In this document: piece by piece, positions 131-59,031 of the stretch | How positions within the stretch are numbered: the first letter of the stretch is position 1 | How the letters are laid out: each line of letters starts with the position of its first letter | Source: Salmonella phage vB_SenS-3 | Length of the DNA: 64,000 nucleotides | Reading direction: 5' to 3' (one strand) | Sequence record: OR896822.1 | Program-made: the position numbers and the translations under genes | Notes under the pieces: generated by a model | Told to the model about the DNA's origin: nothing | Database searches by the model: none | The model's input: only the letters and a program-made list of their open reading frames with translations

Positions 131-2698
131 TCAAGCACCTAAAATCCTTTTCACATTATCCAGATCTTTACATACAGCAATAAACTTATCATCCTTGTAC
201 TTGCTGTGGTCTGGATGCTCTTTATCCATTGCAGCTAACTTCTTATACTCGAAATCTGCATCGAGTAATACACCCTTAACATAACGAGTATATTCATCAT
301 CATCAATACAAGCGATTGATGGGTGCTGTTTCTTCATCTTACCACAAGAGTAGTCGCGAGAACCACCTTTCTCAGAATCAGAATCAATACCGATTGGGCA
401 ACCAGGGATACTAATACCACGATCCTTCTGGATGTTACGAATCAGAATCTCGTTATACTGATCGATCAGATCTTCACGTACAATGGCAACCACGGAGTCG
501 TGAACCAACATGACGATCTTCATCTCTTTTCCTAGACCCAGTGACAGGATTTCTTCATCAGCATCAATAGCACCTAACAACAGGCTATCAGAAGATGCAG
601 ACTGAATGATTGCGTTAAATCCAGAACGGATTTCTTCACCTTGAACACCACGATCTTCGGAATGGATGTTGTGCAGACGACGCTTACGACCAAAGTGACT
701 ATAGATGAATCCAAAGTTCTTGATCTGATCGTGGCACTTATCAATCCAACGCTTAAGCTGAGGGAACTGACCGAAGTAAGTTTCGATATAGTCCTTAGCA
801 TCTGCAACGGTACATTCAACAAACGGTTCGCCTGTCTTAGCAGCCTGTTCCAGAAGAGCTTCGTTAACAGAATGAGCTACTTTCGCTGGGCCAGAACCAT
901 ACAGAATACCGAAGGTAATTGCCTTAGCAGCCTGACGCAGAGCTGGGAACAGCTTTTTAACATCACGTGGTTCACAGGTCAGTTTAAATACCATGTGTGC
1001 GATGTTTGAGTGGAAGTCAGGGTATTTATCCGGCTCATTCTTCATGTTGATAAATACTTGTTGCATGTTTCTGTCACCAGACAGTACAGCAGCGTAATAA
1101 ACTTCCGCAGTTGTTAAGTCCCATGCGATTACACGATATCCAGGGGGAGCTACTACACAACCCTTGATAATAGATTCATCACGTGGTAACTGTTGCAGGT
1201 TTAGCTTACCAGAAGAACTCAGACGACCAGAAGTAGTCATGTGTTCGTGGAAACCGGTACGAATGCAACCATCTGCATCGATGCTCAGAAGAATCTTCTC
1301 AACATAAGTAGAGATCAGCTTAGTCAGCTTACGAATCTCTAGCAGAGTTTTAGCAATCGGGTGCTGAGTAGCCAGTTCATTCAGAGCTTCTGCATTTGTA
1401 GAATCTGCACCTGTATCCGTCAGTTTACCAGTTGGAGTCAAACCAACATAATCAAACAGAAGAACACGGAGTTGCTTAACAGAGTTCGGGTTAAACGCCT
1501 CGTTCTGATTCTTCTCCAGCTGAACGACTTCTGGATAAGTATACAGCTTCTCACGAGCCATATTTAATCGATGTGTCAACTGATACTGAGCTTCTTTCAA
1601 GCGATCAACGGAAATCGGTACACCACGATCTTCAACACGTTGCAGGAATACACAACCAGGCATCAGAACTTCGTAGTATAGACTGCAAAGCTTTTCGTTC
1701 TTCTCAATTTTTGGTAAGAAGAAGTTATGCAGACGCAGAGTAGCATCGGTATCTTTTGCAGCATATGGCCACATAATATCAAAAGGAATCAGATCATAGC
1801 TGAAATCCTCTTTTTTGATCTTATGTGCCTTGCAATAATCATCCTTGAACTTATCCAGTTCAAAGTCATAATCGCCCATGTCAGTATACTTCATAGCCAG
1901 AGATTTCAAGCCGTGAGTACCACGACGTTCATCAAGAACATAGTGTTGCAACATGGTATCATGAAGTCTACGCTCTTTATGTGCTTTCTCGAAGGAAAGT
2001 CTTAGATGATAGGAGTAAAAGTGCATATCGAACTTCAAGTTATGAAAAACGATCTGATGATTCTTGCTATCCAGAATTTTCTGGAGATAATGTACAGCTA
2101 CTTCGGTAATGCTGTCAGAGTCAATATAGACACCCTGATACTCTTGGTGAGACATAGAAACACCAAGAAGATAACCATCACGAGCATACAGAGCTGAGGT
2201 TTCGGAGTCGAATGCGATAGGTCCGATAACCATGTTATACACCATCTTGATGTATTCTTCAGCTTCGTCTGGATCAGTAATAGGACGATAATCACCAGCT
2301 TTTGCAATCTTCTCACGACCATTAATAATGTCGTGAATACTTTCAACAGTAGCATCGAAAACTGGTTTCATTTCAGGTTTAAAGTGTAGCTGAGCTGGAC
2401 TAATACTTGCAATCCAGTTGGCATAGCCACCATGCTCTACACGTTTACCAGTATAATCACCGATACCTTTCTTACCTGCGAAGTACAGGAAAGGTTCAGC
2501 ACCGACTAGCACAACAAAATCGTAATCGTTCGGATCGAACGGGTTATCTGGAGTTCCGATTGTAATATGCTTTTTCAGCAAACGACCAGATAACTTCTCG
2601 TTACACATATGGAATACATCAACTTCCTCACCATAAAGCTGGAAGTGTTTATCATAACGAGTGTTATTTAGAGCTTTATCAACTACTGCAATTTTCAA
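131..2698 (-). CDS. DNA polymerase, family A (Pol I-like) with 3'-5' exonuclease domain
   Basis: 855 aa ORF; exo motif FDSETSALY; motif B RQAAKAITFGILYGSG; motif C VMLVHDSV. Confidence 0.9.
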   Translation of the reverse strand: MKIAVVDKALNNTRYDKHFQLYGEEVDVFHMCNEKLSGRLLKKHITIGTPDNPFDPNDYDFVVLVGAEPFLYFAGKKGIGDYTGKRVEHGGYANWIASISPAQLHFKPEMKPVFDATVESIHDIINGREKIAKAGDYRPITDPDEAEEYIKMVYNMVIGPIAFDSETSALYARDGYLLGVSMSHQEYQGVYIDSDSITEVAVHYLQKILDSKNHQIVFHNLKFDMHFYSYHLRLSFEKAHKERRLHDTMLQHYVLDERRGTHGLKSLAMKYTDMGDYDFELDKFKDDYCKAHKIKKEDFSYDLIPFDIMWPYAAKDTDATLRLHNFFLPKIEKNEKLCSLYYEVLMPGCVFLQRVEDRGVPISVDRLKEAQYQLTHRLNMAREKLYTYPEVVQLEKNQNEAFNPNSVKQLRVLLFDYVGLTPTGKLTDTGADSTNAEALNELATQHPIAKTLLEIRKLTKLISTYVEKILLSIDADGCIRTGFHEHMTTSGRLSSSGKLNLQQLPRDESIIKGCVVAPPGYRVIAWDLTTAEVYYAAVLSGDRNMQQVFINMKNEPDKYPDFHSNIAHMVFKLTCEPRDVKKLFPALRQAAKAITFGILYGSGPAKVAHSVNEALLEQAAKTGEPFVECTVADAKDYIETYFGQFPQLKRWIDKCHDQIKNFGFIYSHFGRKRRLHNIHSEDRGVQGEEIRSGFNAIIQSASSDSLLLGAIDADEEILSLGLGKEMKIVMLVHDSVVAIVREDLIDQYNEILIRNIQKDRGISIPGCPIGIDSDSEKGGSRDYSCGKMKKQHPSIACIDDDEYTRYVKGVLLDADFEYKKLAAMDKEHPDHSKYKDDKFIAVCKDLDNVKRILGA

Positions 2699-10378: not shown

Positions 10379-10407
10379 ATTATACAGAAAAATTTTCCTG
10401 AAAGCAA
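10379..10407 (-). promoter_or_regulatory. sigma70-type promoter
   Basis: minus-strand -35 TTGCTT, 17 bp, -10 TATAAT, conserved ATTCATAAATTTGAGAGG leader. Confidence 0.6.
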
Positions 10408-10415
10408 ATAAATTT

Positions 10416-10874
10416 TTAAGCTGGATATAGCTCGGCTTTGAAAGCAGCTCTAACTTCTATGGCCTCTTCTAACGAATTGCATTGTTGGTACTTACGAGTA
10501 TTTCCTTTTTGCATAAGTACACAGTATTTTTCACCGCGCATATAGATATTAGATTCTCCTAACTTATTGTCCTTTCTCACATCTATATTATGCATTTGAT
10601 CAGATCTATTGGAATCTTCTAGATTCTCTATGAAATTACAATCCTTAATTCTGTTATTATGGTCTATCTCTTCAGGAATATATCCTTTATGATACAGAAA
10701 GACTAACTGATGTTCTCCCCATTTCTTGCCTTTGAAACCAATCCTGATATACCCTTTGTGCTTCCCACCCGCAAACTGCCCTATTAACCTCTTTTGGTTA
10801 GTTTTCCTCCATTTGAGGTGGCCAGTTTCTGAATCATATTCAAAGGCTTCTCTAACCTCTTCTTGAGTTATCAT
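10416..10874 (-). CDS. HNH homing endonuclease with AP2-like DNA-binding domain
   Basis: 152 aa; HNH motif EIDHNNRIKDCNFIENLEDSNRSDQMHN; C-terminal AP2-like region. Confidence 0.75.
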   Translation of the reverse strand: MITQEEVREAFEYDSETGHLKWRKTNQKRLIGQFAGGKHKGYIRIGFKGKKWGEHQLVFLYHKGYIPEEIDHNNRIKDCNFIENLEDSNRSDQMHNIDVRKDNKLGESNIYMRGEKYCVLMQKGNTRKYQQCNSLEEAIEVRAAFKAELYPA

Positions 10875-28222: not shown

Positions 28223-28251
28223 TTGCTAAACGCTTCAAAATTTCGTATAAT
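28223..28251 (+). promoter_or_regulatory. sigma70-type early promoter
   Basis: -35 TTGCTA, 17 bp, -10 TATAAT, conserved leader. Confidence 0.6.
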
Positions 28252-32243: not shown

Positions 32244-32272
32244 TTGCTTTAAGCCTTAAAATTCTGTATAAT
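32244..32272 (+). promoter_or_regulatory. sigma70-type early promoter
   Basis: -35 TTGCTT, 17 bp, -10 TATAAT. Confidence 0.6.
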
Positions 32273-32475: not shown

Positions 32476-32918
32476 TGGAAGAGAATATTCTAGATGTTTT
32501 GCGTAGGGCTTTGCAGGAATCCAAGTTTGATGGTTCTGATAAAGAAGTAGCTAAAAGCTACCAGACCATAATCGGAGATCTTCAGCGTGTTGATAAAGAC
32601 TTCATTACTTCTGAACAGTTTATATCTTATCTAAAAGCTCAACTGAAAAGCATTAATCAGACGAAAGCTAAACTTCACAGTCAAGATCTTGATAATTATA
32701 GCTTGCAGTCTGCTCAGTATGAATATATACTGAACAAATGGTTACAGCAGTATTTGCCTCCTCAGCTATCTGATTCTGAGATTCGCAAATACTTCGCAGA
32801 ATTAGTTAAGCTGAATCCTGGGATTACAAAGGGTATGCTGATGAAAGCGATTAAGGAAGAGTTTCCTGGTCGTTACGACGGTGGCATTGCTGCTCAGGTT
32901 GCTGGCGAATTTAATTAA
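32475..32918 (+). CDS. GatB/YqeY-like domain protein
   Basis: 147 aa; N- and C-terminal segments resemble the YqeY family. Confidence 0.55.
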   Translation: MEENILDVLRRALQESKFDGSDKEVAKSYQTIIGDLQRVDKDFITSEQFISYLKAQLKSINQTKAKLHSQDLDNYSLQSAQYEYILNKWLQQYLPPQLSDSEIRKYFAELVKLNPGITKGMLMKAIKEEFPGRYDGGIAAQVAGEFN

Positions 32919-32927
32919 AAATTAATT

Positions 32928-32956
32928 TGCTAAACGCTTCAAAATTCTGTATAATA
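32928..32956 (+). promoter_or_regulatory. sigma70-type early promoter directly abutting the HNH endonuclease ORF
   Basis: -35 TTGCTA, 17 bp, -10 TATAAT; ATG of 32962 lies 6 nt after the -10 with no RBS. Confidence 0.6.
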
Positions 32957-32961
32957 TATTC

Positions 32962-33444
32962 ATGAAAAGGAAAGAATACCCTACTAAAGAAATACTTGAA
33001 AAATATTTTGTAGCTGATCCTGATAATGGGATACTATATAGGAAAACAAAGAAAGGTTTGAAAGAGTGTTGTGCCAATAATAAGAAATCACATCCAGATG
33101 TGGGATTTCAGGGCGACACCTATCAACTGCATGTCTTATTATTTATTATGTACTATGGATATATGCCTGAAGAAGTAGATCATAAGGATACTAATCCTAG
33201 AAATAATAGGAAAAATAATCTAAGGGACGCCTCTAGATCGCAAAATAATGCGAATAGAAACCAACAATGCAATAATACTTCTTGGTACAAAGGAGTAAGT
33301 TGGGAAGGCTCTTCCTTGAGATACCAAGTAAGACATGAAGGAAAAAATTACAGTAAAAGAGGGTTTAAAACTGCGGAAGAGGCTTTCGAGGCCTCTAAGA
33401 TATTAAGAGAATCCTTACATAAAGAATTTACTAACTTTGGTTAG
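32962..33444 (+). CDS. HNH homing endonuclease with AP2 domain
   Basis: 160 aa; HNH core EEVDHKDTNPRNNRKNNL...N; AP2-like WYKGVSWEGSSLRYQVRHEGKNYSKRGFKTAEEA. Confidence 0.75.
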   Translation: MKRKEYPTKEILEKYFVADPDNGILYRKTKKGLKECCANNKKSHPDVGFQGDTYQLHVLLFIMYYGYMPEEVDHKDTNPRNNRKNNLRDASRSQNNANRNQQCNNTSWYKGVSWEGSSLRYQVRHEGKNYSKRGFKTAEEAFEASKILRESLHKEFTNFG

Positions 33445-34074
33445 TAATAGTGGGGTGCCGAAACCACTTATGTAACAACACTGCCGTCCTAGTATAATAG
33501 GTATTATTAGGGCTTCACCGCCTGAAGATGTGGGTTCGAGTCCCACGGTCGGAAAGAGTTGGATAACTGGTGCTTCTAATGGCGAAGCAATCGCAGGCAG
33601 TTGCGCACTGCCAAAACCACGCGGTAGTTGGTTCCAGGCTAACCAACCACTCTTGAAAAGTATATACTACGGTTTTGCTTGTTCAGGAAGCTTCGCATCG
33701 AAAATCGGAGGTGCGATTTTATCAGACCGCGTGGAGGACGTCTCTCCGTTAAGTGACGAAAAGTGGGACGATTCAGGTAGAGCTGGATATGGAACACCTA
33801 TACATATGCGGAGTGCGCACAAAGCATATTGCGGTGGTACTAAACGAAATTAGGAGTCATGACCTGCACAAGTTTAGTATGTCATAACCGATGTACATTC
33901 AGTACAAAAACCACTGAAGCTAAGATAGATAGTCACCTTGACTTAAACTGGAAGATATTGTCTGACGGAAGGGCTGCAGAGCTTAATCTGAGGGGGCTGA
34001 CCCTACCTACCGTCGGGTATCTTTAAGAGTTCTTACGAGAACTCTTAAAGATACCTAAACATTAAGGAATACTG

Positions 34075-34584
34075 ATGAATCTAGGAACTACTTGTATATT
34101 TGATCACAGAGAAATGTGTTGCCCACATATTCTGTATGTAGTTCACTTTGCAGAACGTCTTACTCTGGATGAAGCTCGTGAGAAAATGGGTGGAATTACT
34201 GGATATGATTTCCGTGAAGGTGAATACTTTAGCATTGCTCTTGATTACATTGACAATACCCGTCTCTATCATCTAGTGCAGCTAGGGGAAGAAACTGATG
34301 AAGTGAAAATGGCGAAAGATACTCTACGTCGTTATCGTCCTCAGATTCTAGAACGTACACTTCGTGGAGAACGTAGTGACCCATTGTTCTTGAAGTGCTA
34401 TGACGCAGATGTTAATGAGTATCTAGGACAGCAACGGTTTTACACTGAAATCAAAGAGTTTGTTCGTGAAAAATACGACGCTCTACTAATTGATTCCAGA
34501 GCACGACGTGCAGCTAAAAATGCTGAGAAATCTGCTAAAGCAGCACTAGAAAGCCAAACCAAACTGAACGAAATCGTTAAGTGA
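34075..34584 (+). CDS. hypothetical protein
   Basis: 169 aa ORF ending 8 nt before tRNA-Arg. Confidence 0.55.
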   Translation: MNLGTTCIFDHREMCCPHILYVVHFAERLTLDEAREKMGGITGYDFREGEYFSIALDYIDNTRLYHLVQLGEETDEVKMAKDTLRRYRPQILERTLRGERSDPLFLKCYDADVNEYLGQQRFYTEIKEFVREKYDALLIDSRARRAAKNAEKSAKAALESQTKLNEIVK

Positions 34585-34592
34585 TCTAATTT

Positions 34593-34667
34593 CGGGGTGT
34601 AGTCTAAGGGATAGGCAGGAGTCTTCTAAATTCCTTTATGCAGGTTCGAATCCTGTCACCTCGGCCA
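34593..34667 (+). tRNA. tRNA-Arg (anticodon TCT)
   Basis: hand-folded cloverleaf: acceptor CGGGGTG/CACCTCG, anticodon loop CTTCTAA, T-loop TTCGAAT, CCA encoded. Confidence 0.75.
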
Positions 34668-38259: not shown

Positions 38260-38288
38260 TTGCTTAATGCCTAAATTTTCTGTATAAT
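38260..38288 (+). promoter_or_regulatory. sigma70-type early promoter
   Basis: -35 TTGCTT, 17 bp, -10 TATAAT. Confidence 0.6.
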
Positions 38289-38321
38289 ATATTCATAAAT
38301 TTGGAAGATTAGGAACTATTT

Positions 38322-38831
38322 ATGTTAGACTATGAGTCTATACTTTATAGATTCCGTTTAGAAGATGGTGTACTGGTGTGGAATCCGCTCTCCGGAAACT
38401 CCAGAGAGGAGAAGATATTTAATACTAAGTTTGCCAATAAACCTGCGGGATCTTTGCACAAAAGCTCTGGGTATATCAGAGTTAACGTTGATCACCAAGA
38501 TTACTTAGCTCATATCATAGTATTTATACTATATTATGGGTATAGGCCGGAAATGGTTGATCATAAAGACTGCAATAAGTTAAATATACATCCTTTAAAT
38601 TTAAGAGCAGCGGATAGTACCACTAATACTCATAATGCTAGTAAATCTTCTAGGAATACTAGCGGATTTAAGGGAGTATCCTACCACAAAGCATCTGGTC
38701 AGTGGCAGGGTAGAATAATGTTTAAAGGTAAGTCATACTCCGCAGGGCTGCACAGTACTCCTGAAGCAGCAAATGAAGCTCTAATTCAACTGAGAGAGAA
38801 ACTTCATGGGGAATATGCCCGAAATAATTAA
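38322..38831 (+). CDS. HNH homing endonuclease with AP2 domain
   Basis: 169 aa; HNH core PEMVDHKDCNKLNIHPLNL; AP2-like GFKGVSYHKASGQWQGRIMFKGKSY; stop abuts tRNA-Ser. Confidence 0.75.
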   Translation: MLDYESILYRFRLEDGVLVWNPLSGNSREEKIFNTKFANKPAGSLHKSSGYIRVNVDHQDYLAHIIVFILYYGYRPEMVDHKDCNKLNIHPLNLRAADSTTNTHNASKSSRNTSGFKGVSYHKASGQWQGRIMFKGKSYSAGLHSTPEAANEALIQLREKLHGEYARNN

Positions 38832-38920
38832 GGAAGAATAGCATAACGGTATTGCAGCAGATTGCTAATCTGTCGGTTTGAAACATAGCCTTGTGGGTTC
38901 GATTCCCACTTCTTCCGCCA
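38832..38920 (+). tRNA. tRNA-Ser (anticodon GCT), long variable arm
   Basis: acceptor GGAAGAA/TTCTTCC perfect; anticodon loop TTGCTAA; T-arm GTGGG-TTCGATT-CCCAC; CCA encoded. Confidence 0.8.
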
Positions 38921-40251: not shown

Positions 40252-40326
40252 GCACCTATCGTCTAATGGTTAGGACATCAGGATTTCAATCTGAGAATTG
40301 AACTCCGATTCTCCGTGGGTGTGCCA
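40252..40326 (+). tRNA. tRNA-Glu (anticodon TTC)
   Basis: acceptor GCACCTA/TGGGTGT; D-stem GTCT/GGAC; anticodon stem TCAGG/TCTGA, loop ATTTCAA; atypical T-arm; CCA encoded. Confidence 0.6.
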
Positions 40327-41620: not shown

Positions 41621-42202
41621 ATGCACGGAATATCCTTACCCATTCCAGGGTTTGAGGAGTACTTAGTAAGTTTGGATGGGTTAGTATTTAGTATCAAATC
41701 AAACAAAATACTAACCCCAATAACCAGTAATTACGGATACTTATCTATACGTCTCCATAAAAATGGTCAACAGAGAAATACCGGTGTACATAGGATTTTA
41801 GCATGTGCATTTAAGAAATTACCAAGTCTAGACTCTGAACTAGAAGTTGACCATATTAACACAGACATTACTTATTGGGGTCTTAATAACTTACAAGTGC
41901 TCACAAAAGAGCAGCATCTAGAAAAGACTTTAAAAGATAAAGGATTTAGTAAACTAAACCATGATAATTGTTGTAAGGATTGTGGTAAAGCTATTTCTTT
42001 AAAAGCTGAAAAATGTCAGGAGTGCTCTTCACATAAACCAAAAGATATCTCTATAACTAAAGAAATAATCGAGGTTACAGTAAGAGAGCTAGGCTGGTCA
42101 GGTGCAGGGAGAAAGTTAAATTATTCAGATAATGGGTTGCGTAAAAGATACACTTCTTTAGGAGGCAATCCTAAAGAACTTAAAAAGTTAAAGGTACTAT
42201 AG
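41621..42202 (+). CDS. HNH homing endonuclease (NUMOD-like N-terminus)
   Basis: 193 aa; motifs HRILACAF...VDHINTD...NNLQ; Cys-rich C-terminal region; stop codon overlaps 5' end of tRNA-Asp. Confidence 0.7.
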   Translation: MHGISLPIPGFEEYLVSLDGLVFSIKSNKILTPITSNYGYLSIRLHKNGQQRNTGVHRILACAFKKLPSLDSELEVDHINTDITYWGLNNLQVLTKEQHLEKTLKDKGFSKLNHDNCCKDCGKAISLKAEKCQECSSHKPKDISITKEIIEVTVRELGWSGAGRKLNYSDNGLRKRYTSLGGNPKELKKLKVL

Positions 42203-42267
42203 TCTAACGGTTAGGATACTCCCCTGTCACGGGAGAGGTAGGGTTTCGATTACCCTTAGTACCGCCA
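42193..42267 (+). tRNA. tRNA-Asp (anticodon GTC)
   Basis: acceptor GGTACTA/TAGTACC perfect; anticodon stem CTCCC/GGGAG, loop CTGTCAC; T-arm AGGGT-TTCGATT-ACCCT; CCA encoded. Confidence 0.85.
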
Positions 42268-58049: not shown

Positions 58050-58567
58050 TGAAAGTTTATTTTTGGAGCGACCTACACTTAGGGCATGTTAATATCCCTA
58101 AGTTTCGAACTATGTTCTCTAGTATGGAAGAGCACGACGAATTTATCATGGATACTATTACGTCTATGAAGGATAAACGTACTGTATTTTTCATTTTAGG
58201 GGACGCATTTGTATCTAGAAAGGGTCTGGAGAAGTTTGAAAAACTATTTAGCAATGTTAGGACTACTTTAGTTCTGGGAAACCACGATTTGGAACGAGAA
58301 GGCTTATCTTTTACAGACTTAGTAGGTGTAGTAGATAATGTGCAGTCTTTAGTTAAATATAAGAACTTCTGGCTTTCTCATGCCCCCGTGCACCCAGGAG
58401 AGTTAAGGGGTAAAAAGAATTTACATGGGCATACTCACTTTGAATTAATGGGAGATCCACGTTACATTAACGTTTGTGTTGAGTATGCAAAGTCGCCTGT
58501 ACGATTAGAAGATATTATGAGTGGTAAGTATACTTCTCATGATAAAACTAGCTGGATGTTGGAATGA
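58049..58567 (+). CDS. metallophosphoesterase
   Basis: 172 aa; motifs SDLHLGH, GNHD, GHTH. Confidence 0.7.
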   Translation: MKVYFWSDLHLGHVNIPKFRTMFSSMEEHDEFIMDTITSMKDKRTVFFILGDAFVSRKGLEKFEKLFSNVRTTLVLGNHDLEREGLSFTDLVGVVDNVQSLVKYKNFWLSHAPVHPGELRGKKNLHGHTHFELMGDPRYINVCVEYAKSPVRLEDIMSGKYTSHDKTSWMLE

Positions 58568-59031
58568 TATGGATACAAATTACAGAATATCCTAACTATG
58601 CTGTATCAGAAGATGGTGAAGTTAAGAATATATCACGAGGTAGACTTTTAACTCCCCATATAGATAGAGATGGATATGTTATTTATACACTATATAACAA
58701 GGGTAAACCTAAAAAGTTAAAAGCCCATAGATTAGTCGCGCAATACCATCTAGATTTACCAGATAACTGGGAAAACCTACCTGTTAATCACAAGGATGGG
58801 GATAAGCAGAATAACCATAAATCTAATGTAGAATGGTCTACTATACTGGAAAATAATAGACATACTAGAATTAATGGGTTAACTACAGATGCGCTTACAG
58901 TAGAACAAGTATGGGAAATTAGAAGTCTGCTTATACAAGGCAGATCTAATACCGAAATTGCCAAAATCTATAAAGTAGATCAGTCTACTATCAGTAATAT
59001 AAAGACAGGAAGAACGTGGAATTATGTTTGA
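58564..59031 (+). CDS. HNH homing endonuclease (NUMOD-like N-terminus, C-terminal HTH)
   Basis: 155 aa; HNH_3-like AHRLVAQYH...VNHKDGDKQNNH..N; C-terminal NTEIAKIYKVDQSTISNI HTH. Confidence 0.7.
   Translation: MIWIQITEYPNYAVSEDGEVKNISRGRLLTPHIDRDGYVIYTLYNKGKPKKLKAHRLVAQYHLDLPDNWENLPVNHKDGDKQNNHKSNVEWSTILENNRHTRINGLTTDALTVEQVWEIRSLLIQGRSNTEIAKIYKVDQSTISNIKTGRTWNYV

What the first reader, a model, noticed from the sequence alone, without database searches (positions are those of the whole stretch)
32928..33444. HNH endonuclease genes wedged against promoters and tRNAs; one starts 6 nt after a promoter -10 with no RBS
The ORF at 32962 begins 6 nt after the -10 of a consensus promoter, replacing the conserved leader and RBS, so its mRNA would be near-leaderless. 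The HNH at 38322..38831 ends at the nucleotide before tRNA-Ser, and the stop of 41621..42202 overlaps the first bases of tRNA-Asp. This pattern is typical of free-standing homing endonucleases inserting at conserved sites. Five such genes occur in the window.
Basis: partly seen in the sequence, partly recalled or inferred. Interest (0 to 1): 0.6.

Follow-up and report, generated by a model that had tools for sequence, protein, structure and literature searches.

The report
Homing-endonuclease gene fused to promoter start
In this T5-like Salmonella phage, a selfish HNH nuclease gene starts exactly where a strong early promoter is predicted to begin transcription, so its mRNA probably has no leader or ribosome-binding site; nuclease genes of this kind are already known in these phages, and only this way of being expressed is unusual.

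Summary
The window is a T5-like Epseptimavirus. TTGCTA (32927-32932), a 17-nt spacer and TATAAT (32950-32955) are followed 6 nt later by the ATG (32962) of a 160-aa HNH_3 protein with an AP2-like C-terminal domain. About 25 sister promoters in the window carry ATAAATTTGAGAGAGGA at that position.

In phage T5 the orthologous promoter is annotated "P 16-17". It drives a non-coding unit, stable "RNAX" followed by tRNA-Arg. The ORF replaces only the 5' part of that leader. About 78 of 433 related genomes carry an HNH gene here.

Four alleles, down to 47% amino-acid identity (dN/dS about 0.2), behind four different promoter spacers, all keep the ATG 7 or 8 nt after the -10 box. A leaderless mRNA is therefore the best explanation. 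It is inferred, not shown.

The tRNA claims hold. Each tRNA-linked HNH sits next to a strongly divergent tRNA allele, the expected homing signature. All five HNH genes are confirmed.

Caveats:
- The window's copy carries three G->T changes at conserved residues.
- Some relatives carry pseudogenes.
- The cleavage target of this HNH is unknown.

Verdict: a known kind of element with a new expression variant, of moderate interest.

The parts
32908..32926 (+). A/T-rich upstream (UP-like) element of the promoter (tttaattaaaaattaat)
   Evidence: The same 'aaaaatt' tract precedes the -35 box of most sister promoters.
32927..32932 (+). -35 hexamer TTGCTA
32950..32955 (+). -10 hexamer TATAAT, after a 17-nt spacer
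   Evidence: Orthologue of the T5 feature 'promoter P 16-17'.
32962..32964 (+). ATG start codon at the predicted transcription start (7th nt after the -10 box)
   Evidence: Sister promoters have the A of ATAAATT at this position. T5 promoter features span -55..+20 around this A. The modal start site is 7 bp after the -10 box, with a purine preferred (PMC5730371).
32962..33444 (+). HNH endonuclease ORF, 160 aa (allele A)
33121..33255 (+). HNH (His-Me finger) motif region, residues 54-98 (DH74, N86, N95, N98)
33274..33420 (+). AP2-like C-terminal DNA-binding domain. It carries the window-specific G108W (33283) and W119L (33317); R68M (33164) lies upstream of it.
33445..34060 (+). Homologue of T5 'RNAX' stable RNA. 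It includes a conserved element (33446-33481) and a weak tRNA-like gene with anticodon tca (33482-33555).
34593..34667 (+). tRNA-Arg(tct), the end of the promoter's non-coding transcription unit
38260..38288 (+). Early promoter that drives tRNA-Ser directly in HNH-less relatives
38303..38311 (+). GGAAGATTA, a remnant of the first 9 nt of the displaced tRNA-Ser allele, now part of the leader of HNH 38322
38322..38831 (+). HNH_3 + AP2 endonuclease ORF, annotated F-TflVI in vB_SenS-3. Its stop codon abuts tRNA-Ser.
38832..38920 (+). tRNA-Ser(gct), the divergent allele linked to the HNH (62/94 identical to the Sepoy allele)
41621..42202 (+). NUMOD4 + HNH endonuclease ORF. Its last 10 nt, including the TAG, lie inside tRNA-Asp.
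42193..42267 (+). tRNA-Asp(gtc), the divergent allele linked to the HNH (54/76 identical to the rokbiter allele)
10416..10874 (-). HNH_3 endonuclease ORF. Its stop codon lies 9 nt upstream of the -35 box of the promoter that I recognise as T5 PN25.
58564..59031 (+). NUMOD4 + HNH_3 + HTH endonuclease ORF

Best explanation
**What it is.** ORF 32962..33444 is a free-standing homing-endonuclease-type gene. The protein has an I-HmuI-like HNH nuclease domain and an AP2-like DNA-binding domain.

**Where it sits.** It occupies the very 5' end of a non-coding early transcription unit. The promoter is the orthologue of T5 'P 16-17', and the unit continues through stable RNAX to tRNA-Arg. That unit offers no ribosome-binding site.

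**How it is probably expressed.** The ORF is fused to the promoter so that the A of its ATG is the predicted transcription start. Host RNA polymerase would then make a 5'-AUG leaderless mRNA that continues into RNAX and tRNA-Arg and is trimmed by tRNA/RNA processing. 70S ribosomes would start directly on the terminal AUG. This gives a low, SD-independent dose of a potentially toxic nuclease early in infection.

**What the protein probably does.** It most likely nicks or cuts the corresponding region of co-infecting relatives that lack the gene, and spreads by recombinational repair.

**Shown:** promoter geometry, loss of the leader and RBS, the domains, the sporadic distribution, conservation of the fusion, and purifying selection.

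**Inferred:** the exact 5' end, leaderless initiation, nuclease activity and homing.
For: **Geometry.** The ATG is the 7th nt after TATAAT, where sister promoters have the A of ATAAATT. This is the only one of 35 such promoters with that spacing.

**T5 annotation.** T5 places +1 of the orthologous promoter at this A and annotates a stable non-coding RNA after it.

**Start-site rules.** The modal start site is 7 bp after the -10 box, with a purine at +1 and a pyrimidine at -1. Here that is C then A (PMC5730371).

**No alternative start.** No other start codon or SD is available. N-terminal residues 1-12 are conserved in homologues, so translation must begin at this ATG.

**Conservation of the fusion.** The ATG lies 7 nt after the -10 box in the following (8 nt in L016):
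- allele A: window, MET_P1_137_112, JLBYU43, RA40, vB_SenS-3, L020, L022
- allele B (47% aa identity): PRF-SP12, atrejo
- allele C (L015, 71%)
- allele D (L016, 70%)

These sit behind four different promoter spacer sequences.

**Selection.** dN/dS between alleles A and B is about 0.2.

**mRNA 5' end.** The first 50 nt are unstructured (-1 kcal/mol) and A-rich.

**Related HNHs elsewhere.** HNH genes of the same family at another site have ordinary leaders, so the fusion is specific to this site.

**Junctions.** Homology to HNH-less genomes stops at 32966 and resumes at 33441-33446. The cassette is therefore essentially the ORF alone.

**Protein.** HNH_3, I-HmuI similarity, and invariant H74, N86, N95 and N98.

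**Distribution.** About 63 records carry allele A and 15 carry allele B, out of 433 related records.
Against: - No transcript 5' end, ribosome-binding, protein or nuclease data exist for this gene, and none were found in the papers searched.
- A start at the G two bases downstream would give an untranslatable RNA.
- No terminator separates the upstream yqeY-like gene from the promoter. Read-through transcripts carrying an internal ATG must therefore also exist.
- Leaderless mRNAs are rare and usually poorly translated in enterobacteria (PMC9031893).
- The window's copy has R68M, G108W and W119L at conserved positions.
- rutana and KKP 3953 carry broken copies, and L022 has the catalytic change H74N. 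The element is therefore often decaying.
- The flank to the right is 99% identical in genomes with and without the gene, so no target or immunity site was identified.
Confidence: 0.6

Rival explanations
1. The gene is translated mainly from longer read-through transcripts that start at the upstream promoter (32244) and run through the yqeY-like gene. Initiation at the internal ATG would be SD-independent: 70S scanning or re-initiation after the upstream stop, or S1 binding to the A/U-rich stretch. On this view the overlap with the promoter is only a by-product of where the cassette recombined.
For: No terminator is predicted between the yqeY-like stop (32918) and the ATG. The gap is 43 nt here and only 21 nt in L016, where the upstream stop lies inside the promoter spacer. 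Half of T4's free-standing endonuclease genes lack a recognisable initiation region and rely on coupling (PMC2988022). 70S scanning is an accepted route (PMC9031893).
Against: It does not explain why the distance from the -10 box to the ATG stays at 6-7 nt across four alleles while the promoter spacer, the discriminator and even the upstream gene differ. The promoter has every feature of the active family and is an annotated T5 promoter.
Confidence: 0.22
2. The gene in this genome is a decaying, essentially unexpressed relic. The ATG at +1 is an accident of the recombination junction, helped by the similarity of ATGAAA to the consensus start ATAAAT.
For: The window differs from the consensus allele by three G->T changes and no synonymous change. 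Two of them hit residues that are invariant in eight homologues. rutana has a frameshift, KKP 3953 is a chimera and L022 carries H74N. A homing-endonuclease cycle of invasion, decay and loss is expected (PMC3326045).
Against: The ORF is intact in four alleles that differ by up to 53% in protein, with dN/dS about 0.2 and catalytic residues kept. This requires that the protein has been made from this ATG over a long period.
Confidence: 0.1
3. The protein has been domesticated for a job other than homing. It might act as an autorepressor or processing factor at the RNAX/tRNA unit, or as a weapon that excludes related phages. The promoter fusion would then serve that regulatory role.
For: T4 intron endonucleases double as repressors of their own promoters (PMC2988022). 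The right flank is unchanged between genomes with and without the gene, unlike the tRNA-linked HNHs.
Against: There is no direct evidence. The sporadic distribution and the frequent pseudogenes fit a dispensable selfish element.
Confidence: 0.06

Closest known systems
I-HmuI (HNH homing endonuclease of Bacillus phage SPO1, PDB 1U3E)
F-TflI, F-TflII, F-TflIV (and the annotated F-TflVI, P-TflVIII, P-TflX) HNH endonucleases of phage T5
   Same: Same phage group, same enzyme class and the same tRNA-gene neighbourhood. They are known to be the main source of differences between T5-like genomes (PMC10644984; PMC3326045). GenBank records already label this ORF 'P-TflX'/homing endonuclease and label 38322 'F-TflVI'.
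   Different: T5 itself has no gene at this site; it has promoter P 16-17 followed directly by RNAX. No description of a promoter-ATG fusion or leaderless expression was found. The original 2004 paper could not be read.
T4 SegB (GIY-YIG homing endonuclease in the T4 tRNA cluster)
   Same: It is a free-standing nuclease gene inside a tRNA cluster. tRNA maturation cuts the transcript between the last sense codon and the stop codon, which is proposed to lower expression. The same was proposed for the T5 F-Tfl genes (PMC2330249). This matches 38322 (stop abuts tRNA-Ser) and 41621 (stop inside tRNA-Asp).
   Different: SegB belongs to a different nuclease family. Its 5' control is by RBS sequestration and a late promoter, not by loss of the leader (PMC2988022).
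Leaderless mRNAs of enterobacteria and their phages (for example lambda cI from PRM; from my own knowledge)
   Same: The 5'-terminal AUG is created by a promoter placed directly before the start codon, there is no SD, and 70S ribosomes are expected to initiate (PMC9031893).
   Different: The known cases are mostly repressors of temperate elements transcribed from weak, regulated promoters. Here the gene is a selfish nuclease behind a strong early promoter of a lytic phage, and the same transcript continues into a stable RNA and a tRNA. The 5' end is only predicted.

Membership tests
HNH / His-Me finger endonucleases (Pfam HNH_3) | Profile match above the curated cut-off | tested here: met
   PF13392 at 46.8 bits against a cut-off of 24.8, E 2.3e-12. 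phrog_99 'HNH endonuclease' at 3.4e-44 over residues 1-158.
HNH / His-Me finger endonucleases (Pfam HNH_3) | Catalytic His and metal-binding Asn residues of the beta-beta-alpha motif | tested here: met
   D73-H74, N86, N95 and N98 are invariant or nearly invariant in alignments A3 and A5 and align to the I-HmuI motif.
HNH / His-Me finger endonucleases (Pfam HNH_3) | Fold similar to a solved HNH homing endonuclease | tested here: met
HNH / His-Me finger endonucleases (Pfam HNH_3) | Metal-dependent DNA nicking or cleavage | not testable with these tools
   Needs a biochemical assay.
Free-standing homing endonuclease genes | Presence/absence polymorphism at one locus among close relatives, with sharp junctions | tested here: met
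   About 63 (allele A) and 15 (allele B) of 433 records. Junctions lie at 32966/33441-33446 against bastian and T5.
Free-standing homing endonuclease genes | A nuclease-resistant variant of the target next to the gene, with a sensitive variant in genomes that lack it | tested here: inconclusive
   For 38322 and 41621 the adjacent tRNA is highly divergent (62/94 and 54/76 identical) while the next tRNA is 97-100% identical. For 32962 the right flank is 99% identical with or without the gene, and no candidate target was found.
Free-standing homing endonuclease genes | Site-specific cleavage of the gene-less allele and biased inheritance in mixed infection | not testable with these tools
   Needs an in vitro assay and phage crosses.
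Leaderless mRNA | Primary transcript 5' end at (or within about 1 nt of) the start codon | not testable with these tools
   Predicted only, from the -10 to ATG distance of 6 nt, C/A at -1/+1, sister promoters and T5 promoter features.
Leaderless mRNA | AUG start codon with no SD and no alternative start | tested here: met
   The start is ATG. The upstream sequence is TATAATATATTC. The in-frame stop at 32923-32925 is followed by no ATG, GTG or TTG. No downstream Met is conserved among alleles.
T5-type early promoters | TTGCTx, 17 nt, TATAAT, with an A-rich upstream tract | tested here: met
   Exact match; 27 of 29 identical to the promoter at 28223. Orthologous to the T5 feature 'promoter P 16-17'.
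T5-type early promoters | Conserved transcribed leader ATAAATT(T)GAGAGAGGA | tested here: not met
   The leader is replaced by ATGAAAAGGAAAGAAT, which is coding sequence.

The most novel reading that the evidence does not exclude
A lineage of homing-endonuclease genes has persisted, through more than 50% protein divergence, as an exact +1 fusion to the promoter of a stable-RNA/tRNA operon. One primary transcript would then be at once a leaderless mRNA, a stable RNA and a tRNA precursor. The nuclease dose would be set by leaderless 70S initiation, and perhaps by start-site wobble between A+1 and G+3, possibly tuned to the state of the translation apparatus in T5-infected cells. That would make it a natural, strongly transcribed leaderless early mRNA in a lytic enterobacterial phage, and a new control mode for selfish nucleases.
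Probability: 0.2. Interest if true: 0.6.

Novelty: new variant of a known kind. Interest (0 to 1): 0.4.

Why it matters
Free-standing HNH endonuclease genes are already known as the main source of mosaicism in T5-like phages, so the gene itself is ordinary.

Two points would be new if confirmed.

- **A conserved leaderless mRNA in an enterobacterial system.** Such mRNAs are rare there. This one would come from a well-studied class of strong promoter, giving a convenient model for 5'-AUG initiation and for how a changed initial transcribed sequence affects T5 promoter output.
- **How a selfish gene gets translated after landing in a non-coding RNA operon.** It adds 'no leader at all' to the known ways phages limit endonuclease expression: hidden RBS, translational coupling and tRNA-processing cuts.

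The linked divergent tRNA alleles also give concrete candidate targets for two other nucleases in the window.

Full report
**Source and setting.** The window is a T5-like Salmonella phage (Demerecviridae, Epseptimavirus). The 1.3 kb around the finding is 99.8-99.9% identical to phages RA40, bux and vB_SenS-3. The region holds 28 tRNA genes.

It also holds a family of near-identical early promoters. TTGCTA-N17-TATAAT with at most one mismatch occurs 26 times, against 1.08 expected. One copy, at 10407-10379 on the minus strand, reads TTGCTTTCAGGAAAATTTTTCTGTATAAT-AGATTC-ATAAATTTGAGAGAGGAG. I recognise this as the classical T5 PN25 promoter (the recognition is my own knowledge).

**The observation.**
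- The -35 TTGCTA lies at 32927-32932 and the -10 TATAAT at 32950-32955. Six bases (ATATTC) follow, then the ATG at 32962. The ORF ends with TAG at 33442-33444.
- The preceding in-frame stop is at 32923-32925. No ATG, GTG or TTG lies between it and 32962, and no SD-like sequence is present.
- In about 25 sister promoters the 7th base after TATAAT is the A of a conserved leader, ATAAATT(T)GAGAGAGGA, which carries the ribosome-binding site.
- The distance from the -10 box to the genuine gene start is 27-40 nt. Three 14-nt cases in the scan are an ATG inside the conserved leader. Only the 32927 promoter has a distance of 6.

**What the ORF encodes.**
- Pfam HNH_3 matches at 2.3e-12, above the cut-off. 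PHROG 99 'HNH endonuclease' matches at 3.4e-44 over residues 1-158.
- The only solved relative found by sequence is the nicking homing endonuclease I-HmuI (1U3E), aligned through VDHKD...NN...NLR...N..N.
- H74, N86, N95 and N98 are invariant among nine homologues.

**What lies at this site in relatives.**
- Of 433 phage records that match the flanks, 61 cover the ORF. tblastn finds 63 records with 90% or more protein identity (allele A).
- A second allele (B) has 47% protein identity and occupies the same slot in 15 records.
- Most other genomes match only up to query base 568, which is window 32967.
- Against bastian, homology stops at 32966 and resumes at 33446. The ORF takes the place of 371 nt of ORF-less sequence.
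- Phage T5 gives the clearest picture. The orthologous promoter is annotated 'promoter P 16-17'. What follows it is 'rnaX, stable RNA with unknown functions', 719 nt running up to tRNA-Arg.
- T5 promoter features are 75 nt long, which corresponds to -55..+20. That places +1 on the A seven bases after TATAAT.
- In T5 the RNA begins with a perfect 13-bp 5' hairpin (-11.6 kcal/mol, z -3.0). The window's ORF replaces just T5 +6..+28.

The gene therefore sits at the very start of a non-coding RNAX/tRNA-Arg unit, whose leader never had a ribosome-binding site.

**Is the fusion accidental?** I collected more alleles.
- Two Logan assemblies carry alleles about 70% identical in protein (L015 at 71%, L016 at 70%).
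- One IMG/VR contig and one gut-metagenome contig carry allele A (L020, L022).
- The ATG is the 7th base after TATAAT in the window, MET_P1_137_112, RA40, vB_SenS-3, JLBYU43, L020, L022, PRF-SP12, atrejo and L015. It is the 8th base in L016.
- These genes sit behind four different spacer sequences and five different discriminators.
- In L016 even the upstream gene differs, but alignment shows the promoter is orthologous.
- dN/dS between alleles A and B is about 0.2, with dS saturated.
- The N-terminus MKR-x-x-YP-T/S-K is conserved, and no downstream Met is shared. The protein must therefore have been made from this ATG for a long time.
- Related HNH genes at the phoH/nrdA site of other phages have ordinary leaders.

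**Mechanism.**
- E. coli-type RNA polymerase starts most often 7 bp after the -10 box. It prefers a purine at +1 and a pyrimidine at -1 (PMC5730371). Here that is C-32961 and A-32962.
- The predicted transcript therefore begins 5'-AUGAAAAGG. Its first 50 nt are unstructured.
- Leaderless mRNAs are translated by 70S ribosomes that bind a 5'-terminal AUG, and they are rare in enterobacteria (PMC9031893).
- I infer a leaderless early mRNA that runs on into RNAX and tRNA-Arg. This would give a low dose of nuclease. It fits the general rule that phage homing-endonuclease genes are weakly translated: hidden RBS, translational coupling or no initiation region at all (PMC2988022).
- This step is inferred, not shown. 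Read-through transcripts from the promoter at 32244 must also exist, because no terminator intervenes.

**The tRNA-linked genes.**
- ARAGORN and Rfam agree on the boundaries. tRNA-Ser starts at 38832, the base after the TAA of ORF 38322..38831. tRNA-Asp starts at 42193, so the TAG of ORF 41621..42202 lies at tRNA bases 8-10.
- RNase P cleavage would leave the first mRNA ending at its stop codon and would remove the stop codon from the second. The same situation was described for T4 segB and proposed for T5 F-TflI/II (PMC2330249).
- Both genes are sporadic: 57 of 441 and 50 of 453 records.
- In HNH-less Sepoy the promoter at 38260 drives tRNA-Ser through an 8-nt leader. In the window the first 9 nt of that tRNA (GGAAGATTA) remain upstream of the HNH gene.
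- The tRNA next to each HNH gene is a very different allele. tRNA-Ser is 62/94 identical and tRNA-Asp 54/76. The next tRNA downstream is 100% and 97% identical.
- This is the pattern expected if the nuclease targets the tRNA gene of relatives and travels with a resistant copy.
- In rutana the same slot holds a small Toprim protein instead.

**Signs of decay.**
- The window's copy differs from the consensus allele A (vB_SenS-3, L020) by exactly three G->T changes: R68M, G108W and W119L. There is no synonymous change. RA40 has the first two.
- G108 and W119 are invariant in the eight other homologues and lie in the AP2-like domain.
- rutana has a frameshift (69 aa). KKP 3953 is a patchy chimera (21 aa). 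L022 has H74N in the catalytic motif.
- This fits the invasion-and-decay cycle of such elements. The window's own enzyme may be impaired.

**Comparison with what is known.** HNH homing endonucleases of T5-like phages are established. They include three characterised ones in the tRNA region, and they are the main source of genome differences in the group (PMC10644984; PMC3326045). GenBank already labels this ORF 'P-TflX' or homing endonuclease. I found no report of a promoter-to-ATG fusion or of leaderless expression for any of them.

**Verdict.** The element is of a known kind. The conserved leaderless arrangement inside a stable-RNA operon is a new variant, and it is moderately interesting.

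Noticed in passing
window 34061..34592 (ORF 34075..34584): This is a clean 532-nt insertion exactly at the border between the RNAX homologue and tRNA-Arg, seen against both bastian and T5. It carries a 169-aa ORF with no Pfam or PHROG match. Homologues occur only in T5-like phages. It may be another mobile cassette of unknown type.
   Followed up: partly
window 33445..34060; T5 NC_005859 40848..41566: T5 annotates this region as 'RNAX, stable RNA with unknown functions'. Its 5' part is hypervariable among relatives: a 34-nt hairpin leader in T5, about 210 nt in Sepoy, 371 nt in bastian. No Rfam family matches it.
   Followed up: partly
window 33482..33555: A weak tRNA-like gene with anticodon TCA. 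ARAGORN calls it 'SeC', and the Rfam tRNA score is 33 bits against a cut-off of 29. It lies inside the RNAX homologue and would read UGA if functional.
   Followed up: no
L011 (Salmonella phage KKP 3953, OR067837) 963..1080: This HNH gene's first 115 nt or so carry four short colinear patches identical to the HNH-less leader of Sepoy/bastian. The two sequences otherwise show no similarity. It is either a recombination scar or a mixed-lysate assembly artefact.
   Followed up: partly
window 33164, 33283, 33317: Three G->T transversions (R68M, G108W, W119L) are the only differences from the consensus allele. All are non-synonymous and lie at conserved positions. RA40 shares the first two.
   Followed up: yes
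L017 (Salmonella phage rutana) 520..1038: A 172-aa Toprim-domain ORF occupies the slot between the promoter and tRNA-Ser, where the window has HNH 38322. A partial copy of the promoter's -10 box and leader follows it.
   Followed up: partly
window 38832..38920 and 42193..42267: The tRNA-Ser and tRNA-Asp next to the HNH genes are highly divergent alleles (66% and 71% identical to those of HNH-less relatives). The neighbouring tRNA-Met and tRNA-Lys are 100% and 97% identical.
   Followed up: yes
window 10416..10418 / 10407..10379 (- strand): The stop codon of the HNH gene at 10416..10874(-) lies in the A-rich upstream element, 9 nt before the -35 box of the promoter that I recognise as T5 PN25.
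   Followed up: no
window 40252..40323: Rfam reports a tRNA match (35 bits, E 0.0003) directly after tRNA-Tyr that ARAGORN did not call. It may be a degenerate tRNA.
   Followed up: no
L022 (human gut metagenome contig OXIW01001545) 61..540: A copy of allele A with the catalytic His74 changed to Asn, behind a third promoter-spacer variant and still with the ATG 7 nt after the -10 box.
   Followed up: no
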